In this document: in pieces, positions 6,552 to 31,282 of the stretch | How positions within the stretch are numbered: position 1 is the first letter of the stretch | Layout: every line of letters begins with the position of its first letter | DNA from: Candidatus Saccharimonadota bacterium | Lineage (GTDB): Archaea; Nanobdellota; Nanobdellia; Pacearchaeales; GW2011-AR1 | DNA: 32,000 nucleotides | Direction: 5' to 3' | NCBI GenBank assembly: GCA_017609205.1 | Contig: JAFCEL010000001.1 | Coordinates: 150,001 to 182,000 of the forward strand | Made by a program: the position numbers and the translations under genes | Notes under the pieces: model-generated | The model's database searches: none | Seen by the model: only the letters and a program-made list of their open reading frames with translations | Told to the model about the DNA's origin: nothing

Positions 6552-6718
6552 CTACCTGCCCTGAAAGAATTGAATGACGTATAGATAGTTAGCAGCAGGT
6601 CATACTTATTAAGAATTTTCTAATTTAATTACAGAAGTTTAAGATAACAACAATTATTTAAACTTCTTAAAATCTAATATTAAAGTATTATATACAACCA
6701 TTCTGACTACAAAGAAAT

Positions 6719-6793
6719 GGTCCCGTAGCTCAGCCTGGTTAGAGCACCAGACTCTTAATCTGGGTGTCGGGGGTTCAAATCCCTCCGGGGCCA
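6719..6793 (+). tRNA. tRNA-Lys (anticodon CUU), no intron
   Basis: Hand-drawn cloverleaf. Acceptor GGUCCCG/CGGGGCC. D arm GCUC-AGCCUGGUUA-GAGC. Anticodon arm CCAGA-CUCUUAA-UCUGG. V loop GUGUC. T arm GGGGG-UUCAAAU-CCCUC. Discriminator A, CCA not encoded. TTATATA box about 28 nt upstream. Confidence 0.93.
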
Positions 6794-6878
6794 TTCTGAT
6801 TTAAACAGAAGAAGATTATTCCTTCTGAAAACCACAATCCTAAACTTTATTAATACAGACTCTTTTCTTTTGTAAAAG

Positions 6879-10654: not shown

Positions 10655-10771
10655 GAGCCTGTAGCTCAGCCAGGTTAGAGCACTGCTCTGATAAACTAAA
10701 CTCGTTTAGTTTGCTAAACCTGTTTAGATTTAGTAAGGCAGGGGTCCGCGGTTCAAATCCGCGCAGGCTCA
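10655..10771 (+). tRNA. tRNA-Ile (anticodon GAU) with 42-nt intron at 37/38
   Basis: Acceptor GAGCCUG/CAGGCUC. D arm GCUC-AGCCAGGUUA-GAGC. Anticodon stem CUGCU/GGCAG. Loop CUGAUA|intron|A. V loop GGGUC. T arm CGCGG-UUCAAAU-CCGCG. Discriminator A. Intron about 10694-10735, boundary ambiguous by 1-2 A residues. Confidence 0.9.
10694..10735 (+). other. tRNA-Ile intron (bulge-helix-bulge type, canonical position)
   Basis: Exon CUGA (10688-10691) can pair with intron UUAG (10730-10733) as the central 4-bp helix, flanked by UAA(A) and UAA bulges. The rest forms a rod from CUAAAC/GUUUAG units. Confidence 0.75.
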
Positions 10772-18390: not shown

Positions 18391-18930
18391 TTATTTTCTC
18401 CAGAAAAGTAATTTTTTTCTTTTCCCACGATTATTAAACCAATAAGAAAGGTAAATAACAGCGGCCAGACCTAATAGTGAAAGAATAAACCGAAGTAAGT
18501 CGTCGCTATATCTCCAATAGCCACCGGCACCGTATAGGATTGTGCCAACCCCACCACCCATTAAACCAGCTCCAACTGCTTCTAATCCAAAAAAGAGCCC
18601 TCCTAAAACAAGAAGCAAAATTCCTAGGGGAAGCGCAATAAAGAAAATTATTTTTGAACGTAATTCCCGAGCACTCTCATAATCCTTTCTACAGCTATAA
18701 TCCCTATCACAATAACCCCTTATATCACCCATTTTATCTGAGCCATAAGAAGTCCATTGCCCTCCAATTTCAATACATCTTGCTTCATTGTCAATAATCT
18801 CTTGTGTTTTTACAGGCAGACAATAATCTTCATATTGAGGCGAAGGATAAAATAAACTAATGCCATAAACAACTACAAAAATTGTCAAAATCATAATAGA
18901 AATTCCCAGAATAATATCCCTCAATTTCAT
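18391..18930 (-). CDS. membrane protein with Cys-rich extracytoplasmic segment (hypothetical)
   Basis: Start moved to the internal Met (MKLRDIILGISIMILTIFVV). The longer track ORF would overlap the divergent aIF-2beta gene and its promoter. One N-terminal TM, a 4-Cys segment, then Gly-rich C-terminal TMs. Confidence 0.5.
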   Translation of the reverse strand: MKLRDIILGISIMILTIFVVVYGISLFYPSPQYEDYCLPVKTQEIIDNEARCIEIGGQWTSYGSDKMGDIRGYCDRDYSCRKDYESARELRSKIIFFIALPLGILLLVLGGLFFGLEAVGAGLMGGGVGTILYGAGGYWRYSDDLLRFILSLLGLAAVIYLSYWFNNRGKRKKLLFWRK

Positions 18931-21044: not shown

Positions 21045-21160
21045 GTCCCGGTAGCTCAGTTGGTAGAGCGCATGGCTGTTAAATTCAACTTGTTGAATAA
21101 CCACAAAACGTCTGTTTTGCAGGAACCATGGTGTCGTAGGTTCGAGTCCTACCCGGGACG
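21045..21160 (+). tRNA. tRNA-Asn (anticodon GUU) with 43-nt intron at 37/38
   Basis: Acceptor GUCCCGG/CCGGGAC. D arm GCUC-AGUUGGUA-GAGC. Anticodon stem CAUGG/CCAUG. Loop CUGUUA|intron|A. V loop GUGUC. T arm GUAGG-UUCGAGU-CCUAC. Discriminator G. ATTTTAAAAGG box about 29 nt upstream. Confidence 0.9.
21082..21124 (+). other. tRNA-Asn intron
   Basis: Exon CUG(U) 21076-21079 can pair with intron (G)CAG 21119-21122, flanked by 3-nt bulges UAA and GAA. Two internal hairpins: AUUCAA/UUGAAU (21083-21098) and CAAAAC/GUUUUG (21104-21119). Confidence 0.7.
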
Positions 21161-21809: not shown

Positions 21810-22889
21810 TTAACTTAACACTTCTATACCTAAGTCAGAAATTTCTTTTGACATAGGCATTGACTGCTCTTCAAGATCCTTACCAAGCACATAAGGAGAC
21901 TTGACACCAGTCATTATTGTTATCACTCGCACTTTTCCGACAAAATCCTTGCTAATTCTTGCACCAATGATAACTTGTGCTTCAGGACTTAAATTTTCAG
22001 AGACAGTTCTTCCAATAATGTCAAACTCTTCTAATTTCAAATCAGGACCACAAGTCACGTGTATTAAAGCGCCAGTAGCACCTCTGTAATCCACATCAAG
22101 TAGAGGATGAGTAAGTGCCTGCTGTACTGCTTCTTGAACACGATTCTGTGTATCATTCTCTCCGATACCAATCACAGCAACACCACCATTCTTCATTATT
22201 GCTGAAACATCTGCATAATCCAGGTTAATTAAACTTGGAAGTGTAATTGTTTCTACAATTCCTTTAACCATTGTGCTAACTAATTCATTAGCAACAGCAA
22301 ATGCCTGCTCGATTGGTAATTGTCCTGCAATATCTACAAGCCTGTTATTATCAAGAACAATGCAAGTATCTGTAACTTCTCTAAGCTCTTGCAATGCAAA
22401 TTCTGCCTTATCGATTCTTGCTTTCTCAGATTCAAAAGGCATAGTAACAACACCTATAACAACAGCACCTGTCTCTTTAGCAAGCTGTGCAACAACAGGA
22501 GCAGCACCTGAACCAGTTCCACCGCCCATTCCAGAGAGAACAAAAACCATATCAGCGCCAGAAACTGCTTTCTTTAAATCTACAATTGCTTCTTTTGCTG
22601 CTTCTCTCCCTTTATGAGGCATACCACCAGCACCAAGCCCTCTTGTTAGCTCTCTTCCAATAAGAACCTTTTCGTCAGACTTTGTGACACTCAAGTGTAA
22701 AGCATCTGTATTTGCCCCATAAACTGTTGCTCCATTAATTCCTTTATTAAAGAGCCAAGTAACCATGTTACATCCGCAACCTCCAACACCAATTACCTTT
22801 ATGCTAGCTTTTCCAGCTTTCAAATCGTCGAAATTGATACTGTGCGAATCTGCATGTTCAATTGCTTCTTTTGCAAAATCTAATGTCAT
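21810..22889 (-). CDS. ftsZ: cell division GTPase FtsZ
   Basis: IKVIGVGGCGCNMV and the tubulin signature SGMGGGTGSGAAPVVAQLAKE. NDTQNRVQEAV T7-loop region. AGGAGGT SD (22897-22903, minus strand) upstream of the ATG. Confidence 0.96.
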   Translation of the reverse strand: MTLDFAKEAIEHADSHSINFDDLKAGKASIKVIGVGGCGCNMVTWLFNKGINGATVYGANTDALHLSVTKSDEKVLIGRELTRGLGAGGMPHKGREAAKEAIVDLKKAVSGADMVFVLSGMGGGTGSGAAPVVAQLAKETGAVVIGVVTMPFESEKARIDKAEFALQELREVTDTCIVLDNNRLVDIAGQLPIEQAFAVANELVSTMVKGIVETITLPSLINLDYADVSAIMKNGGVAVIGIGENDTQNRVQEAVQQALTHPLLDVDYRGATGALIHVTCGPDLKLEEFDIIGRTVSENLSPEAQVIIGARISKDFVGKVRVITIMTGVKSPYVLGKDLEEQSMPMSKEISDLGIEVLS

Positions 22890-28560: not shown

Positions 28561-29985
28561 ATGACTATATCAAACATAATTCATAGTGTTAGAAATATAA
28601 TGAGAAAAGACCCTGGAGTGGATGGAGATGCTCAGAGAATTTCCCAAATGACATGGATGATATTTCTTAAAGTATTTGATGCTATGGAAGAAGAAAAAGA
28701 AGCAGAAAATTCAAAATATAAATCTCCTTTGCCTGAAGAAATAAGATGGAGAAATTGGGCATCAAATGAAGAAGGAATAACAGGAGATGAATTATTAGAT
28801 TTTGTGAATGATCAAGTTTTCGAGGGAATTAAAAAATTAGATGTGAAAAATAGTAAAAAGGCTCAGATAGTAAAACAAGTTTTTGAAGATACTTATAATT
28901 ATATGAAAAGCGGGGTCTTGATGAGGCAAGTTATTAATGAAATAAATAAAATTGATTTCACTAGTTCTGAAGACAGGCATTTGTTTAATGATATTTATGA
29001 GACAATTTTAAGAGAACTTCAGAGTGCTGGTTCTGCAGGAGAGTTTTATACCCCAAGAGCAGTCACGCAATTTATAGTTGATATGGTAAATCCTAAATTA
29101 GGAGAGATTTTATTAGATCCTGCATGTGGAACAGGGGGGTTTTTAGTTTCTGCCTTAGAAAATATGAGAAAAGAAGTTGATAATATTGAAGAATTACAAA
29201 GATTAGGAAAAAATATCAGAGGAATAGAGAAAAAACCCTTGCCTCATTTGTTATGCATGACTAATTTGATGTTACATGATATTGATGAGCCAAATATTAA
29301 ACATGATAATTCATTGTCAAAACCATTAAGAGAGTATTCTTCTAAGGACATGGTTGATGTAGTTGTGACAAATCCCCCTTTTGGAGGAGCAGAAGAAGAA
29401 GGTATTGAAAATAATTTCCCAACTGAATTTAAAACAAGAGAAACAGCAGATTTGTTTTTAGTTCTTATTATGAAACTTTTAAGAGAAGAAGGAAGATGCG
29501 GGATTGTTTTGCCTGATGGATTTTTATTTGGAGAGGGTGTTAAAACAAGAATAAAAGAGAAATTATTAACTGAATTTAATCTTCATACAATAGTTAGACT
29601 TCCTAATGGTGTTTTTAACCCATATACTGGAATTAGAACAAATCTACTTTTCTTTGAAAAAGGAAAACAAACAAAGGAAATTTGGTATTTTGAGCATCCC
29701 TTGCCAAAAGGATATAAAACATACAACAAAAGCAAACCGATTAACATTAGAGAATTTGATTTGGAAAAAGAATGGTGGAACGATAGAGAAAATGAAAAAT
29801 TTAAGCAATATGCTTGGAAAGTTTCTATTGAAGAAATCAAAAAGAGAAATTATAATTTAGATATTAACAATCCTAACGGAAAAAAAGAGGAAGAAAATTT
29901 GAGTTCTAAGGAGATTCTGGAGAAGTTAGAGAAGAGTTTGGAGAGTAGTAAGGAGTTAATTGAGAAGCTTAAGGAGGAGGTTTGA
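28561..29985 (+). CDS. hsdM: type I restriction-modification system, methyltransferase subunit M
   Basis: N-terminal HsdM_N-like IMRKDPGVDGDAQRISQMTWMIFLKVFD. AdoMet motif I LDPACGTGGFL. Motif IV VVTNPPFGG. 474 aa. Confidence 0.93.
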   Translation: MTISNIIHSVRNIMRKDPGVDGDAQRISQMTWMIFLKVFDAMEEEKEAENSKYKSPLPEEIRWRNWASNEEGITGDELLDFVNDQVFEGIKKLDVKNSKKAQIVKQVFEDTYNYMKSGVLMRQVINEINKIDFTSSEDRHLFNDIYETILRELQSAGSAGEFYTPRAVTQFIVDMVNPKLGEILLDPACGTGGFLVSALENMRKEVDNIEELQRLGKNIRGIEKKPLPHLLCMTNLMLHDIDEPNIKHDNSLSKPLREYSSKDMVDVVVTNPPFGGAEEEGIENNFPTEFKTRETADLFLVLIMKLLREEGRCGIVLPDGFLFGEGVKTRIKEKLLTEFNLHTIVRLPNGVFNPYTGIRTNLLFFEKGKQTKEIWYFEHPLPKGYKTYNKSKPINIREFDLEKEWWNDRENEKFKQYAWKVSIEEIKKRNYNLDINNPNGKKEEENLSSKEILEKLEKSLESSKELIEKLKEEV

Positions 29986-29990
29986 AAATG
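29971..29990 (+). promoter_or_regulatory. strong Shine-Dalgarno (AAGGAGGAGG) plus ATG at the 3' end of hsdM, feeding only a 16-codon ORF
   Basis: The SD lies inside the last hsdM codons, 7 nt before ATG 29988. That ORF (MRNIDTLLNIKRSKNE) stops at 30036-30038. Confidence 0.45.
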
Positions 29991-30034
29991 AGAAATATTG
30001 ATACATTACTAAATATAAAGAGATCAAAAAATGA

Positions 30035-30117
30035 ATAGGGTAAGTGCGTCCGTCAATCCTACTAACCGCATCAAGAGCAAGCTCCAGCACGGGGTTCGTC
30101 AGGTCGCGTTTCCCTAT
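30035..30117 (+). ncRNA. candidate structured small RNA / cis element (GC-rich rod-like hairpin), function unknown
   Basis: About 56% G+C by hand count (45/80) in AT-rich surroundings. Nested pairings: 30035-40/30112-17, 30042-48/30105-11, 30050-51/30102-03, 30055-60/30091-96, and apical 30075-77/30082-84. TATA-like AAATATAAA at 30011-30019. A U-rich tract follows. Confidence 0.4.
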
Positions 30118-30201
30118 GTATTATTTACTACTCACTACTATTTAAATTTTATGACTATGGATATTTTAAATAAATTTTGAATATGTTGAGGGGGTGTGAA
30201 T

Positions 30202-31044
30202 ATGGTAAGATTTATCAATAAAAATTTAAAGTCTCATTCTTATACCTCAAGTGAACCTTTAAATTCTTTAATGGACAACATTGTTCAATCCGAAATAGCT
30301 AAATTATTGGCATTTCACTTTAGAGATTTTGGGAAGAAATCTAGTACTGATCTTACTCATTTGCTTCAGAAAACAACAATACAATTAGGATTATCTTCTC
30401 CAAGGGAAGTGGATTTCTGGTTTGGATCTGGGCAAATAAGCGTTAAAGAGTTTTTTTTGTTAATTGAACTTATCCTTGAGACTTATGTAGAAAGCAATAA
30501 AAGATGGTTAGAAGAATCATACATTCTAGATTTTGTAAATGATATTAATGATTTTTTTCTTATCCATAAAGTTCCCTTATCAATTAGATATTTTTCAAAT
30601 AAAAAAGAATTTTATGTTGAAAAAATAATTTCTCCTGAAATTAGTAAAGAAATCAAAAAAACTTTAGAAGATTTCTCAAAGGAGGAAAAAGTGTTTGAGG
30701 ATTTTAAGGAGGCTATTAAAAAATATAGTTCTGGAAATTATGAAGGTTCTATTGAAAAATGTTGTGTTTCAATTGAAGATTATCTCTGCATTCTTTTAGA
30801 GAAAAAAACATGCTCTAGTATTGACAAGTATTATAAAGATATTGCTAAGAGGTTAAAAATTCCTGAAGATTTAAATGATAGATTCACAAATATCATACAT
30901 TACATCCATAAACACAGATCTCATCAAAACCATGGATCTATTGAGAAGAAGGTAATTGAAGATATTGAATTGATTAATGAAATTATTATTGGATTTACAA
31001 TGACTATTTTAAATTATTTGAAAAAGAAAAATGAAAAAAGTTAA
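30202..31044 (+). CDS. AbiJ-like abortive-infection protein with C-terminal HEPN (Abi_C-type) domain
   Basis: C-terminal DFKEAIKKYSSGNYEGSIEKCCVSIEDYLCILLEKK helix and HKHRSHQNHG (R-x4-H-G) fit the HEPN Rx4-6H motif. The middle segment ILDFVNDINDFFLIHKVPLSIRYF...YVEKIISPEISKEIKKTLE resembles AbiJ N-terminal domains. Start at ATG 30202 (the track start at 30196 is GTG), 5 nt after SD GAGGGGGTG. Confidence 0.6.
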   Translation: MVRFINKNLKSHSYTSSEPLNSLMDNIVQSEIAKLLAFHFRDFGKKSSTDLTHLLQKTTIQLGLSSPREVDFWFGSGQISVKEFFLLIELILETYVESNKRWLEESYILDFVNDINDFFLIHKVPLSIRYFSNKKEFYVEKIISPEISKEIKKTLEDFSKEEKVFEDFKEAIKKYSSGNYEGSIEKCCVSIEDYLCILLEKKTCSSIDKYYKDIAKRLKIPEDLNDRFTNIIHYIHKHRSHQNHGSIEKKVIEDIELINEIIIGFTMTILNYLKKKNEKS

Positions 31045-31282
31045 AGAGAAAACTGAAGATCTGCCAGATTGGATTAAATTAATCTTTAAATGGGTTTTTC
31101 TTTTAGCAGGAGTTCCTAGTCTCTCCTATGTTTTTTTATGGGCCTCTGTTCAAAGTGCTTTTGAAGCTGCAACAACAGGTTGGCAAATTTTTCTGGGATT
31201 TAGTCTTTTTAGTATTTTTCTGGGATATATTTATTTTTCAATTAAATATTTAGTCGAAGAAACTATTGGTTATTTTAAATGA
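31031..31282 (+). CDS. small 2-TM membrane protein (hypothetical)
   Basis: 83 aa. Two hydrophobic helices (WIKLIFKWVFLLAGVPSLSYVFLWA and WQIFLGFSLFSIFLGYIYFSI). Overlaps the HEPN gene by 14 nt and the hsdS start by ATGA. Confidence 0.55.
   Translation: MKKVKEKTEDLPDWIKLIFKWVFLLAGVPSLSYVFLWASVQSAFEAATTGWQIFLGFSLFSIFLGYIYFSIKYLVEETIGYFK

What the first reader, a model, noticed from the sequence alone, without database searches (positions are those of the whole stretch)
30011..30130. GC-rich 83-nt rod-like element with its own TATA-like box immediately upstream of the HEPN gene
30037-30116 is about 56% G+C (45/80 by hand count). Intergenic DNA elsewhere in the window is far more AT-rich, and the only other non-coding GC islands are tRNAs. 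The element can be drawn as one long imperfect hairpin. The pairings are AUAGGG (30035-40) with CCCUAU (30112-17), AAGUGCG (30042-48) with CGCGUUU (30105-11, two G-U pairs), CC (30050-51) with GG (30102-03), and AAUCCU (30055-60) with GGGGUU (30091-96). The apex is GAG-CAAG-CUC (30075-84). AAATATAAA (30011-19) sits about 25 nt before the first G run, the right distance for an archaeal promoter, and a U-rich tract follows the 3' foot. The location suggests an RNA partner of the HEPN RNase, such as a type III-like RNA antitoxin, decoy or substrate mimic. Alternatives are a cis terminator or insulator between hsdM and the insert, or a scar of foreign DNA marking the insertion border.
Basis: seen in the sequence. 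Interest (0 to 1): 0.65.

Follow-up and report, generated by a model that had tools for sequence, protein, structure and literature searches.

The report
Unrecognised small RNA gene, opposite strand
The GC-rich patch is a real gene for a conserved, folded small RNA of tiny DPANN archaea that no RNA database lists, but it is read from the other strand and goes with a different, nuclease-like protein (lost here), not with the neighbouring HEPN gene.

Summary
The GC island is real: 45/80 G+C, in the top 0.05% of 80-nt windows. As a single sequence it folds no better than shuffles (z about -1).

Homologues settle the question. The same ~80-nt element occurs in more than 45 DPANN contigs (Woese-, Pace- and Nanoarchaeota). 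Flanks diverge, and 16 of 19 base pairs show compensatory changes.

The RNA is on the minus strand, about 30120 to 30032. Three things show this:
- Every copy has an A-rich BRE plus a TTTAWAW box at a fixed distance on that side.
- An oligo-U tract follows.
- Frequent G-U pairs would be C-A mismatches on the plus strand.

The fold is a rod: a closing stem, a covarying helix, an invariant kink-turn core (CUGA / GG-NNN-GAC), an AGUA/GAA sarcin-ricin motif, then a covarying hairpin. Rfam 15 has no match.

All seven X genes looked up without regard to the RNA have it convergently downstream.

Related hsdM-Abi_C loci lack the element. It is therefore an inserted block and not a HEPN partner.

Function is inferred: a protein-binding RNA partner of nuclease X, possibly antitoxin-like.

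The parts
30032..30120 (-). Small RNA gene, about 83-89 nt. Covariance-model match of 91.4 bits; the same interval on the + strand scores 8.3 bits.
   Evidence: Homologues in more than 45 contigs.
30139..30153 (-). Promoter of the RNA. TATA box TTTAAATA (30146-30139) is preceded by the A-rich BRE-like CATAAAA (30153-30147). It lies 21 nt upstream of the first base of stem P1.
   Evidence: All 40 copies compared have an A-rich tract plus a TTTAWAW box at the same offset, -27 to -20 from model position 1.
30026..30031 (-). Oligo-U (U6) terminator tract, 3 nt after stem P1.
   Evidence: Read directly from the sequence. T-rich runs follow most copies.
30112..30117 (-). Stem P1, 5' strand (AUAGGG). 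It pairs with 30035-30040.
   Evidence: Compensatory changes G-C to A-U, U-A to C-G and A-U to G-C.
30035..30040 (-). Stem P1, 3' strand (CCCUAU). It overlaps the stop codon of the X remnant on the other strand.
30098..30107 (-). 5' strand of the kink-turn region. GCG-A-CC is the NC helix and UGA-C is the D-box-like CUGA. GA forms the tandem sheared pairs.
   Evidence: The NC helix is replaced compensatorily in variant copies: GGGAUUC/GAAUCC, GGGUUC/GAGCCC, GAGCUC/GAACUC and GGAUUUU/AAAUUC. CUGA is invariant.
30046..30059 (-). 3' strand of the kink-turn. GG is the C-helix side, AUU the 3-nt bulge, GA the sheared pairs, then C-GG-A-CGC is the NC helix.
   Evidence: The bulge varies (AUU/UUA/UUU/AUA) while the flanking GG and GAC are invariant. 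K-turn definition taken from PMC8191799.
30095..30097 (-). GAA half of a sarcin-ricin / loop-E type motif.
   Evidence: Invariant in all 40 copies. AGUA/GAA is the canonical motif sequence (PMC1865062).
30060..30063 (-). AGUA half of the sarcin-ricin / loop-E type motif.
   Evidence: AGUA in 38 of 40 copies and AUUA in 2.
30066..30092 (-). Hairpin P3 (30088-92 pairs with 30066-70). It carries a lineage-specific extension hairpin (GGAGCUUGCUCU, 30074-30085) and the invariant loop dinucleotide UG (30073-30072).
   Evidence: 4 of 5 P3 pairs show double changes. U-G and G-U pairs are frequent, at 17 and 14 of 40 sequences. The extension is absent or different in other lineages.
29988..30038 (+). 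Remnant of gene X: a 16-codon ORF, MRNIDTLLNIKRSKNE*.
   Evidence: tblastn gives 92% identity to residues 143-154 of the L041 X protein, E = 7e-4. Full X genes sit at this position in other loci.
29974..29990 (+). Left copy of a 17-nt imperfect direct repeat, GAGGAGGTTTGAAAATG. It holds the last hsdM codons, the stop codon and an ATG.
   Evidence: 14/17 identical to 30188-30204. Together the two copies bracket the ~197-nt inserted block.
30188..30204 (+). Right copy of the direct repeat, GAGGGGGTGTGAATATG. It ends in the Abi_C start codon.
28561..29985 (+). hsdM, the type I R-M methylase. Context only; not part of the RNA module.
   Evidence: Pfam N6_Mtase 2.5e-76 and HsdM_N.
30202..31044 (+). 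Abi_C (HEPN-type) gene. Context only; not the partner of the RNA.
   Evidence: Homologues carry PF14355. They abut hsdM directly in L001 and L002.

Best explanation
SHOWN
- The segment is a stand-alone gene for a small structured RNA of about 83-89 nt, transcribed from the minus strand (about 30120 to 30032).
- It has its own archaeal BRE/TATA promoter at 30139-30153 and ends at an oligo-U tract at 30031-30026.
- The RNA folds into a rod with four parts. P1 is the closing stem. A second helix leads into a kink-turn (CUGA opposite GG-AUU-GAC). This abuts an AGUA/GAA sarcin-ricin (loop E) motif. Last comes a covarying hairpin P3 with a conserved UG in its loop.
- It belongs to a family absent from Rfam 15, found in DPANN archaea.
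- All seven X genes looked up without regard to the RNA, and most loci overall, have the RNA gene immediately downstream of, and convergent with, a 154-aa RNase H-fold protein, 'X'. X has a putative D-E-D-D catalytic set.
- Clades of X go with variants of the RNA.
- In this window X has been lost except for its last ~13 codons.
- The block (X tail + RNA + promoter) sits as a ~200-nt insertion between hsdM and the Abi_C/HEPN gene, bracketed by a 17-nt imperfect repeat.

INFERRED
- The RNA is a protein-binding scaffold. It has no long conserved single strand that could act as a guide.
- It probably binds L7Ae through the kink-turn, and binds X.
- The X-RNA pair is an accessory two-part module that sits in defence and toxin-antitoxin islands.
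- My preferred mechanism is that the separately and strongly transcribed RNA keeps the X nuclease in check, following antitoxin-like, type III logic. The copy here would then be an orphaned antidote.

LIKELIHOODS
- Real minus-strand RNA gene of a new family: about 0.9.
- Functional partner of X rather than of HEPN: about 0.7.
- Neutraliser of X specifically: about 0.3.
For: Family and conservation:
- An exact 19-mer found 3 other DPANN genomes.
- A two-block pattern found 40 metagenome contigs.
- The core is near-invariant while the flanks are unrelated.

Structure:
- Alignment A3: 97.9% of cells paired, 7 pairs with double changes, 0/500 shuffles as good.
- Alignment A5 includes variant copies: 96.2% paired and 16/19 pairs with double changes. 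Versions with the partner slid by 1-3 columns give only 33-49% paired.
- The helix next to the kink-turn is swapped wholesale in variant copies, while CUGA..GAA and AGUAGG-NNN-GAC stay fixed.
- That swap rejects RNAalifold's alternative central helix.

Strand:
- The BRE/TATA box sits at a fixed offset in 40/40 copies.
- G-U pairs are frequent.
- The model scores 91.4 bits on the minus strand and 8.3 bits on the plus strand.

Not a known family:
- No Rfam match.
- ARAGORN finds nothing at this position.

Partner X:
- X is adjacent in most loci.
- 7 of 7 X genes looked up without regard to the RNA have the RNA directly downstream.
- X proteins next to B-type RNAs form their own clade.
- The X model has pLDDT 92.9. 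Foldseek's best hits are archaeal RNase HII (E = 2.6e-5), plus the IS621 RuvC domain and YqgF.

Not HEPN:
- L001 and L002 have hsdM directly followed by Abi_C with no spacer.
- No Abi_C was found in the other RNA loci.

Accessory nature:
- Only 3 of 185,579 species representatives carry the 19-mer.
- Neighbours include type I R-M genes, MazEF-like genes, ParE, YafQ and SLFN_AlbA_2 ATPases.
- RNA genes without X exist: the window, L009, L013, L017, L026 and L033. No X gene without the RNA was seen.
Against: - There is no expression data. The transcript ends are inferred from promoter and terminator motifs only.
- The central kink-turn and loop-E assignment rests on sequence consensus plus covariation of the flanking helix, not on a 3D structure or a binding test.
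- The two search patterns forced invariance of 28 core positions in most of the collected copies. Conservation of the core is therefore overstated, and only about 12 copies were found independently of the pattern.
- The neutraliser idea has no direct support. X toxicity is untested, and the RNA is not a repeat array.
- The gene order is convergent rather than the upstream, co-transcribed layout of known type III systems.
- Orphan RNAs with perfectly kept sequence suggest the RNA may have a role without an adjacent X. Alternatively X may lie elsewhere in those genomes, which cannot be checked from a 32-kb window.
- X is unusually well conserved for a toxin: only about 100 clusters at 50% identity, most of them fragments.
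Confidence: 0.6

Rival explanations
1. RNA subunit of an RNP nuclease. The RNA does not inhibit X but scaffolds, activates or targets it. This would resemble the way other RNase H-fold enzymes (TnpB/IscB with omega-RNA, IS110 recombinase with bridge RNA) depend on an adjacent structured RNA.
For: - X has an RNase H/RuvC-like fold, and the IS621 and IscB RuvC domains are among its Foldseek hits.
- X and the RNA are strictly adjacent, and X clades track RNA variants.
- The window and L013 hold a relocated block consisting of the X tail plus the RNA, which hints at mobility.
Against: - No variable guide-like segment exists. Every conserved unpaired position is part of a structural motif.
- X is only 154 aa and has no other domain.
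- The RNA has its own convergent promoter and is not part of the X transcript.
- No terminal repeats or conserved DNA lie upstream of X.
Confidence: 0.13
2. Cis-antisense regulator of X, with type I toxin-antitoxin-like logic. X transcripts read through into the RNA gene, so the two convergent transcripts pair over ~80 nt and X expression is repressed.
For: - The orientation is convergent, with the X stop codon 0-45 nt from, or overlapping, the RNA's 3' end.
- There is no clear T-run between the X stop codon and the element on the plus strand in many loci.
- RNA genes occur without X, but X was not seen without the RNA.
Against: - Antisense pairing alone does not explain invariant kink-turn and loop-E motifs, or compensatory changes that keep the RNA's own helices.
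- Type I toxins are small hydrophobic peptides, not 154-aa RNase H-fold proteins (established knowledge).
- Synonymous sites of the X 3' end vary freely.
Confidence: 0.12
3. An autonomous L7Ae-type small RNP RNA with a cellular role, such as RNA processing or ribosome biogenesis. Its adjacency to X would be only conserved gene order.
For: - The core is near-invariant across Woese-, Pace- and Nanoarchaeota.
- A kink-turn like that of box C/D RNAs is present.
- RNA copies persist intact without X.
Against: - Occurrence is sporadic: 3 species representatives and 40 metagenome contigs by exact pattern.
- Some contigs carry two different variants, or tandem copies.
- The RNA lies in variable regions rich in R-M and toxin-antitoxin genes.
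- X clades go with RNA variants.
Confidence: 0.1
4. One reading: an RNA partner (antitoxin, decoy or substrate mimic) of the adjacent HEPN/Abi_C RNase, transcribed from the plus strand.
For: - It lies 85 nt upstream of the Abi_C start codon in this window.
- L006 also has an Abi_C gene and an RNA variant on one 2.8-kb contig.
Against: - L001 and L002 have hsdM followed directly by Abi_C with no spacer, and L003-L005 lack the element.
- None of the other loci with the main RNA form has Abi_C.
- The plus strand has C-A mismatches where the minus strand has G-U pairs.
- The supposed TATA box is coding sequence of X.
Confidence: 0.03
5. A DNA-level element: a recombination site or single-strand DNA hairpin used by X acting as a transposase or resolvase, or a terminator, insulator or scar of foreign GC-rich DNA.
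For: - The block is an insertion flanked by a 17-nt imperfect repeat.
- X is truncated at nearly the same codon in two loci.
- X is RuvC/RNase H-like.
Against: - A BRE/TATA box at a fixed distance and an oligo-T tract point to transcription.
- Invariant kink-turn and sarcin-ricin sequence motifs are RNA motifs.
- Only one copy was found in the 32-kb window.
- There is no match to phage, plasmid or viral collections and no coding-fragment signal. Copy lengths of 74-106 nt differ by non-multiples of 3.
Confidence: 0.04

Closest known systems
Archaeal L7Ae-binding kink-turn small RNAs (box C/D sRNAs)
   Same: - Small (~80 nt), GC-rich RNA in an AT-rich archaeal genome, with its own promoter.
- It contains a box-D-like CUGA opposite a box-C-like UGAC(G), with a 3-nt bulge and tandem G-A pairs. 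This is a standard k-turn by the definition in PMC8191799.
   Different: - Only one k-turn is present, in C'/D'-like polarity with the bulged strand on the 3' side.
- There is no second box pair and there are no 10-12-nt guide segments.
- The C-helix side is a sarcin-ricin motif followed by a long covarying hairpin.
- It is linked to an RNase H-fold gene. No link to Nop5 or fibrillarin was examined.
Type III toxin-antitoxin systems (ToxIN, CptIN, TenpIN)
   Same: - A protein nuclease is paired with a dedicated structured non-coding RNA.
- The pair has accessory, patchy distribution in defence-rich regions.
- Protein and RNA variants are matched to each other.
   Different: - Per PMC8860590 and PMC3401426 (abstracts), the toxins are endoribonucleases and the antitoxin is an array of multiple RNA repeats. 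PMC5772629 (abstract) says the ToxI antitoxin is co-transcribed with the toxin. That it lies upstream of the toxin gene is from my own knowledge.
- Here the protein is RNase H-fold, the RNA is a single ~80-nt rod, and it is transcribed convergently from its own promoter.
RNase H/RuvC-fold enzymes with an adjacent structured RNA (TnpB/IscB omega-RNA; IS110 bridge RNA)
   Same: - An RNase H-like protein with a conserved structured RNA gene directly next to it.
- The IS621 and IscB RuvC domains appear among the Foldseek hits of X.
   Different: - X is far smaller, at 154 aa and a single domain.
- The RNA has no variable guide or target-binding loops.
- The RNA is on the opposite strand, and no transposon ends were found.
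Sarcin-ricin / loop E motif RNAs (5S rRNA loop E, 23S SRL)
   Same: The canonical AGUA/GAA sequence pair is invariant here (PMC1865062).
   Different: Here the motif sits in an ~80-nt stand-alone RNA directly stacked on a k-turn. There is no Rfam match to 5S or other rRNA models.

Membership tests
Any Rfam 15 family | Covariance-model match at or near the gathering score. | tested here: not met
   No hit on the element at the gathering threshold. With E up to 10 on 29900-30300, only chance-level hits appear; the best on the minus strand is Lacto-usp at 17.7 bits against a cut-off of 50. No hits on homologous loci of either variant.
tRNA / tRNA fragment | Cloverleaf detected by ARAGORN or by the Rfam tRNA model. 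| tested here: not met
   ARAGORN finds only tRNA-Lys at 6718-6794. Rfam finds tRNAs at 6719, 10655 and 21045 only.
Kink-turn (structural motif) | [quoted passage not shown] | tested here: met
   - Bulge AUU, which varies to UUA, UUU and AUA.
- G67:A22 and A68:G21 are invariant.
- -1b:-1n is G:C, invariant.
- 3b:3n is C:U.
- The NC helix is 100% paired, with 4 of 5 pairs showing double changes.
This is met at the level of sequence and covariation only. The 3D fold was not tested.
Kink-turn (structural motif) | Binding by an L7Ae-family protein. | not testable with these tools
   Needs EMSA or RIP with DPANN L7Ae.
Sarcin-ricin / loop E motif | AGUA opposite GAA (or an isosteric variant) inside a helix. 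| tested here: met
   GAA is present in 40/40 copies. AGUA is present in 38/40 and AUUA in 2/40. Canonical sequences are taken from PMC1865062. Sequence level only.
Box C/D sRNA | Terminal C (RUGAUGA) and D (CUGA) boxes plus internal C'/D' boxes. | tested here: not met
   Only one CUGA / UGAC pair is conserved. The UGAUG in some copies lies in a lineage-specific extension and is not conserved.
Box C/D sRNA | 10-12-nt single-stranded guide upstream of D/D', complementary to rRNA or tRNA. | tested here: not met
   No conserved unpaired stretch of that length exists. Conserved positions are all in helices or in the two motifs. Complementarity to rRNA was not searched because no rRNA is in the window.
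H/ACA sRNA | Pseudouridylation pocket and a 3' ACA box. | tested here: not met
   The 3' end is CCCUAU followed by U-rich sequence, with no ANA box at a fixed distance. There is no large two-sided internal loop.
Type III toxin-antitoxin | The antitoxin is a tandem array of short RNA repeats (PMC8860590, abstract). | tested here: not met
   There is a single ~80-nt unit per gene. Where two copies are adjacent (L022, L024), each has its own TATA box and they are different variants.
Type III toxin-antitoxin | The antitoxin is co-transcribed with the toxin (PMC5772629 abstract). That it lies upstream of the toxin gene is from my own knowledge. | tested here: not met
   The RNA is downstream of X, on the opposite strand, with its own promoter.
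Type III toxin-antitoxin | The toxin is a ToxN/AbiQ-type endoribonuclease. | tested here: not met
   X is RNase H-fold (Foldseek). PADLOC has no matching family for X; the only hit is a chance-level one to Cmr5, E 0.018, for one of three X proteins. Pfam gives only a weak sub-threshold NYN hit.
Type III toxin-antitoxin | The RNA binds and neutralises the toxin protein. | not testable with these tools
   Needs co-expression and binding assays.
   The model finds no RNA in L001-L005, which are Abi_C loci. tblastn finds no Abi_C in 43 RNA loci. The only other co-occurrence is L006, where the RNA follows X after hsdS.
X-associated RNA (the family defined here) | Lies directly downstream of, and convergent with, an X gene. 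| tested here: inconclusive
   In the window only the last ~13 codons of X remain. The RNA itself scores 91.4 bits against the family model. Whether an intact X exists elsewhere in this genome cannot be seen from 32 kb.

The most novel reading that the evidence does not exclude
X and this RNA form a new, minimal ribonucleoprotein nuclease confined to DPANN archaea. In it, a 154-aa RNase H/RuvC-fold enzyme would need a dedicated kink-turn / sarcin-ricin RNA, possibly together with L7Ae, for its activity or specificity. That would be a new class of RNA-dependent nuclease or mobile/defence module, not a mere inhibitor pair.
Probability: 0.13. Interest if true: 0.9.

Novelty: new variant of a known kind. 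Interest (0 to 1): 0.68.

Why it matters
DPANN archaea have tiny genomes and almost no experimentally studied RNAs. This work defines three things:
- A compact RNA family with a clear, strongly covarying architecture: a kink-turn stacked on a sarcin-ricin motif.
- An uncharacterised RNase H-fold protein family.
- A tight genomic link between the two.

None of the three is in Rfam, Pfam, NCBIfam, PADLOC or PHROGs. I also found none of them in the literature I could search.

If the pair is a nuclease/RNA-antidote module, it extends protein-RNA toxin-antitoxin biology to archaea, with a new toxin fold and a new RNA design. If it is an RNP enzyme, it is a new minimal RNA-dependent nuclease.

There is a practical use as well. 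The covariance model lets annotators label a recurrent 'hypothetical small ORF', since gene callers place 57-93-aa ORFs over this RNA.

The case also carries a methodological lesson. A single-sequence folding z-score of -1 would have wrongly dismissed a real RNA.

Tried and rejected
- Single-sequence folding of both strands gave z = -1.03 and -0.85, which is uninformative.
- Rfam at the gathering threshold and at permissive E-values, on the window and on eight homologous loci, matched no family.
- BLAST of the element against phage and plasmid collections gave nothing, apart from chance 25-nt Streptomyces hits.
- Two 20-mers scanned in IMG/VR gave no hits.
- Coding-fragment idea. Six-frame translation shows a 49-aa plus-strand ORF and a 44-aa minus-strand ORF. 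I rejected this because homologues differ by indels that are not multiples of 3 and show compensatory base-pair changes.
- The RNAalifold consensus paired the invariant centre differently (13-23 with 59-70). I rejected it because the variant copies break those pairs and keep the kink-turn helix.
- By eye I considered and dropped several identities. These were hammerhead (CUGANGA is present but there is no GAAA or stem III), 5S rRNA, SRP RNA (an 8-nt GUCAGGUC coincidence on the wrong strand), a split-tRNA half and H/ACA. None has Rfam support.
- Mobile-element ends. No conserved DNA or inverted repeats lie upstream of X; conservation starts at the X start codon.
- A general link of X-RNA to type I R-M. 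tblastn with the window's R-M genes hit only 4 of 43 loci. Pfam shows five lineages with X-RNA inside type I loci. The link is recurrent but not universal.
- Pfam, NCBIfam, the PDB sequence search, PADLOC and PHROGs gave no name for X. The only signal was a weak, sub-threshold NYN hit.
- Literature searches found no description of this RNA or of X.
- The second GC island, beside an Abi_C homologue in L003/L004, is unrelated in sequence. It has no Rfam hit and no folding signal.
Full report
**1. The observation**

Positions 30037-30116 hold 45 G+C in 80 nt (56.25%), in a window that averages 31.8%. Only 0.05% of 80-nt windows reach that value, and the only richer spot is tRNA-Lys. The composition claim therefore holds.

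The 'rod-like hairpin' is not significant on its own. The plus strand folds to -22.8 kcal/mol against -20.1 +/- 2.6 for dinucleotide shuffles (z = -1.03, 30 of 200 shuffles as good). The minus strand gives z = -0.85. Rfam has no match at gathering or at permissive thresholds, and ARAGORN sees nothing at this position.

**2. Surroundings**

- hsdM ends at 29985 (Pfam N6_Mtase 2.5e-76).
- The downstream ORF (true start 30202) is an Abi_C/HEPN-type protein; its homologues carry PF14355.
- An 83-aa membrane ORF follows, and then hsdS runs off the window end.
- In related contigs hsdM is followed within 0-4 nt by the Abi_C gene (L001, L002).
- The ~200 nt between the two genes here is therefore extra. 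The element does not travel with the HEPN gene.

**3. Homologues**

A 19-mer from the element hit three other DPANN genomes in the GTDB species set: a Pacearchaeota and two Woesearchaeota. The aligned element is nearly identical in these, while the flanks are unrelated.

A two-block pattern then retrieved 40 metagenome contigs, giving 32 distinct sequences. A covariance model built from them (R1) found further, more divergent copies:
- a 'B-type' in L006, L050, L053 and L054;
- second copies in L020, L022, L024 and L039;
- copies in L056, L058 and L060.

The window holds exactly one copy, at 30032-30120 on the minus strand. It scores 91.4 bits, against 8.3 bits for the same interval on the plus strand.

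**4. Strand**

Three independent lines place the RNA on the minus strand.
- All 40 copies compared have an A-rich BRE-like tract (CGAAA, CAAAA or AGAAA) followed by a TTTAWAW box at a fixed offset. In the window this is TTTAAATA at 30146-30139.
- A T-rich tract follows the other end. In the window it is U6 at 30031-30026.
- Helix P3 and stem P1 contain many G-U pairs: U-G in 17 and G-U in 14 of 40 sequences at two P3 positions. These would be C-A mismatches on the plus strand.

On the plus-strand side nothing sits at a fixed distance.

**5.

In most loci a ~154-aa ORF, here called X, ends just before the element on the plus strand. Its conserved C-terminus reads ..EYQxSL[VI][LI]DTLLN[IL][EK]R...

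The window keeps only a 16-codon ORF, MRNIDTLLNIKRSKNE* (29988-30038), starting 2 nt after the hsdM stop codon. Its last 12 residues are 92% identical to the end of the L041 X protein (E = 7e-4).

AAATATAAA (30011-19) is the codon run L-N-I-K. It is conserved because it was coding sequence, not because it is a promoter.

**6. Structure**

Column n of alignment A3 corresponds to window position 30121-n.

- **P1** (30112-17 with 30035-40) shows G-C to A-U, U-A to C-G and A-U to G-C exchanges.
- **P3** (30088-92 with 30066-70) has double changes at 4 of 5 pairs.
- On A3, 97.9% of cells are paired and 7 pairs show double changes. No shuffle out of 500 does as well.

The centre was invariant in that set, but my search pattern forced this. 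RNAalifold proposed one pairing for it. The consensus motifs suggested another.

The divergent copies decide the matter. GCG-A-CC / GG-A-CGC is replaced by four alternatives:
- GGGAUUC / GAAUCC
- GGGUUC / GAGCCC
- GAGCUC / GAACUC
- GGAUUUU / AAAUUC

Meanwhile CUGA-C-GAA and AGUA-GG-NNN-GAC stay fixed, and the three bulge bases vary among AUU, UUA, UUU and AUA.

With these copies included (A5), 96.2% of cells are paired and 16 of 19 pairs show double changes. The central helix is 100% paired. Control structures with the partner slid by 1-3 columns give 33-49%. One caveat applies: A5 was aligned to the model, which favours the model's structure.

The fixed core fits two textbook motifs.
- Directly on the kink-turn's C-helix side is the canonical sarcin-ricin sequence pair AGUA/GAA (PMC1865062).

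The P3 loop keeps an invariant UG. In some lineages, including this window, it also carries an extra small hairpin.

**7. Protein X**

- Pfam gives only a weak NYN hit (E = 0.004, below the cut-off).
- NCBIfam gave only chance-level hits, and the PDB sequence search, PADLOC and PHROGs gave no family for X.
- There are more than 500 close homologues, all hypothetical DPANN proteins.
- A profile search of 1.84 billion representatives finds only 100 clusters, most of them fragments, and no distant relatives.
- An AlphaFold model is confident (pLDDT 92.9). Its best PDB matches are archaeal RNase HII (E = 2.6e-5, TM about 0.5), with the IS621 RuvC domain, YqgF and IscB further down the list.
- Invariant or nearly invariant D11, E73, D101 and D142 lie where an RNase H-fold active site would be. 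This last point is my inference from the secondary-structure order.

**8. Link between X and the RNA**

Seven X genes were fetched without regard to the RNA: L006, L050, L053, L054, L056, L058 and L060. All have the RNA directly downstream and convergent. The second X genes in L020 and L039 have one too.

The reverse does not hold. The window, L009, L013, L017, L026 and L033 have the RNA without an intact X.

X proteins next to B-type RNAs cluster together, apart from those next to A-type RNAs. This fits co-evolution of the two.

Conservation of DNA begins exactly at the X start codon, with no repeats upstream.

**9. Distribution and neighbourhood**

Only 3 of 185,579 species representatives carry the 19-mer, so the RNA looks accessory rather than universal. 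Its neighbours vary.
- In five lineages the pair lies inside type I R-M loci: the window, L006, L007/L019, L016/L029 and L056/57.
- Elsewhere it lies beside genes that look MazEF-like to me from their N-terminal sequences.
- It also lies beside ParE, YafQ, NTP_transf_2 plus NYN, SLFN_AlbA_2 ATPases and DUF2779.

**10. The window's own history**

A 17-nt imperfect direct repeat brackets the inserted block. The left copy is GAGGAGGTTTGAAAATG at 29974-29990 and the right copy is GAGGGGGTGTGAATATG at 30188-30204; 14 of 17 positions match. Both copies contain the last hsdM codons, a TGA and an ATG.

This pattern fits duplication of the original hsdM/Abi_C junction when the block (X tail + RNA + promoter) arrived. 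L013 has X truncated at almost the same codon, which I cannot explain.

**11. Interpretation**

Shown:
- a conserved, structured, minus-strand small RNA gene of a family not in Rfam 15;
- not a partner of the HEPN gene;
- tightly linked to the RNase H-fold protein X.

Inferred: the RNA is a protein-binding scaffold, since it has no guide-like single strand. It probably binds L7Ae and X.

Of the possible roles I favour an antitoxin-like neutraliser of X, at about 0.3. The reasons are the accessory distribution, the toxin-antitoxin and defence neighbourhoods, the matched variants, the independent promoter, and RNA-only remnants with no X-only remnants.

It is not a member of the known type III families. 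The RNA is not a repeat array, it is not upstream or co-transcribed, and the protein has a different fold.

Rival readings remain open:
- RNA subunit of an RNP nuclease (0.13);
- cis-antisense control of X (0.12);
- an autonomous L7Ae RNP (0.10).

**12. Verdict**

The element is best filed as a new RNA family built from known motifs, paired with a new small RNase H-fold protein family. Its function is still to be tested.

Noticed in passing
window 10655-10771 and 21045-21160 (+): Two intron-containing tRNA genes (116-117 nt) are found by the Rfam tRNA model (54-59 bits) but missed by ARAGORN. Together with the promoter style, they mark the window as archaeal.
   Followed up: partly
L003 3925-4035; L004 about 1206-1316: A different ~110-nt GC island (53-57% G+C) lies just downstream of an Abi_C homologue that is not in an R-M operon. 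It is unrelated in sequence to the window RNA. It has no Rfam hit, and its folding z-scores are +0.6 and -0.9.
   Followed up: partly
window 29997-30035; L013, about 60 nt upstream of its RNA copy: Gene X is truncated at almost the same codon (..DTLLNI[EK]R..) in two independent loci that keep an intact RNA gene. This could mean a preferred recombination point or a defined end of a movable RNA cassette.
   Followed up: partly
L022 4195-4280 and 4327-4404; L024 201-278 and 324-411; L020 172-258 and 832-937; L039 170-247 and 2198-2284: Some contigs carry two RNA genes, and in L022, L024 and L020 these are different variants (A-type and B-like). In L022 and L024 they stand in tandem, each with its own TATA box. 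L020 and L039 hold two X-RNA pairs. So distinct variants coexist in one genome.
   Followed up: partly
L007 21-7998; L056 1-5468; L016 and L029: One gene order recurs: hsdR, a ~101-111-aa ORF, DUF2283, a 67-68-aa ORF, X, the RNA, several unknown ORFs, then hsdS. Type I R-M loci in these archaea seem to collect cargo genes, including X-RNA and Abi_C.
   Followed up: partly
window 29974-29990 and 30188-30204: A 17-nt imperfect direct repeat (14/17 identical), each copy containing E-(E/G)-V-stop and an ATG, brackets the inserted block. It looks like a duplicated hsdM/Abi_C junction.
   Followed up: partly
window 31031-31282 (+): An 83-aa ORF that looks like a membrane protein overlaps the Abi_C stop codon and ends where hsdS starts. 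A similar 77-aa ORF follows Abi_C in L001. It has no Pfam or PADLOC hit and may be a partner of Abi_C.
   Followed up: no
L001 1-223: A strongly GC-rich stretch (up to 67% G+C) at the start of an otherwise 31% G+C contig. To me it looks like a foreign coding fragment, possibly from an ABC-type ATPase on the minus strand, or an assembly chimera.
   Followed up: no
L056 2965-3138; L007 4185-4376; L009 4281-4466; L022 4176-4457: ORFs of 57-93 aa lie over the RNA gene. One is a called gene on the public contig (L056, 57 aa). The others come from my own mechanical ORF listings. They are very likely false protein predictions.
   Followed up: no
window 18490-18603 and 22448-22568: Two further mild GC peaks (54% G+C over 80 nt) lie inside long ORFs. 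I took them for ordinary coding composition and did not examine them.
   Followed up: no
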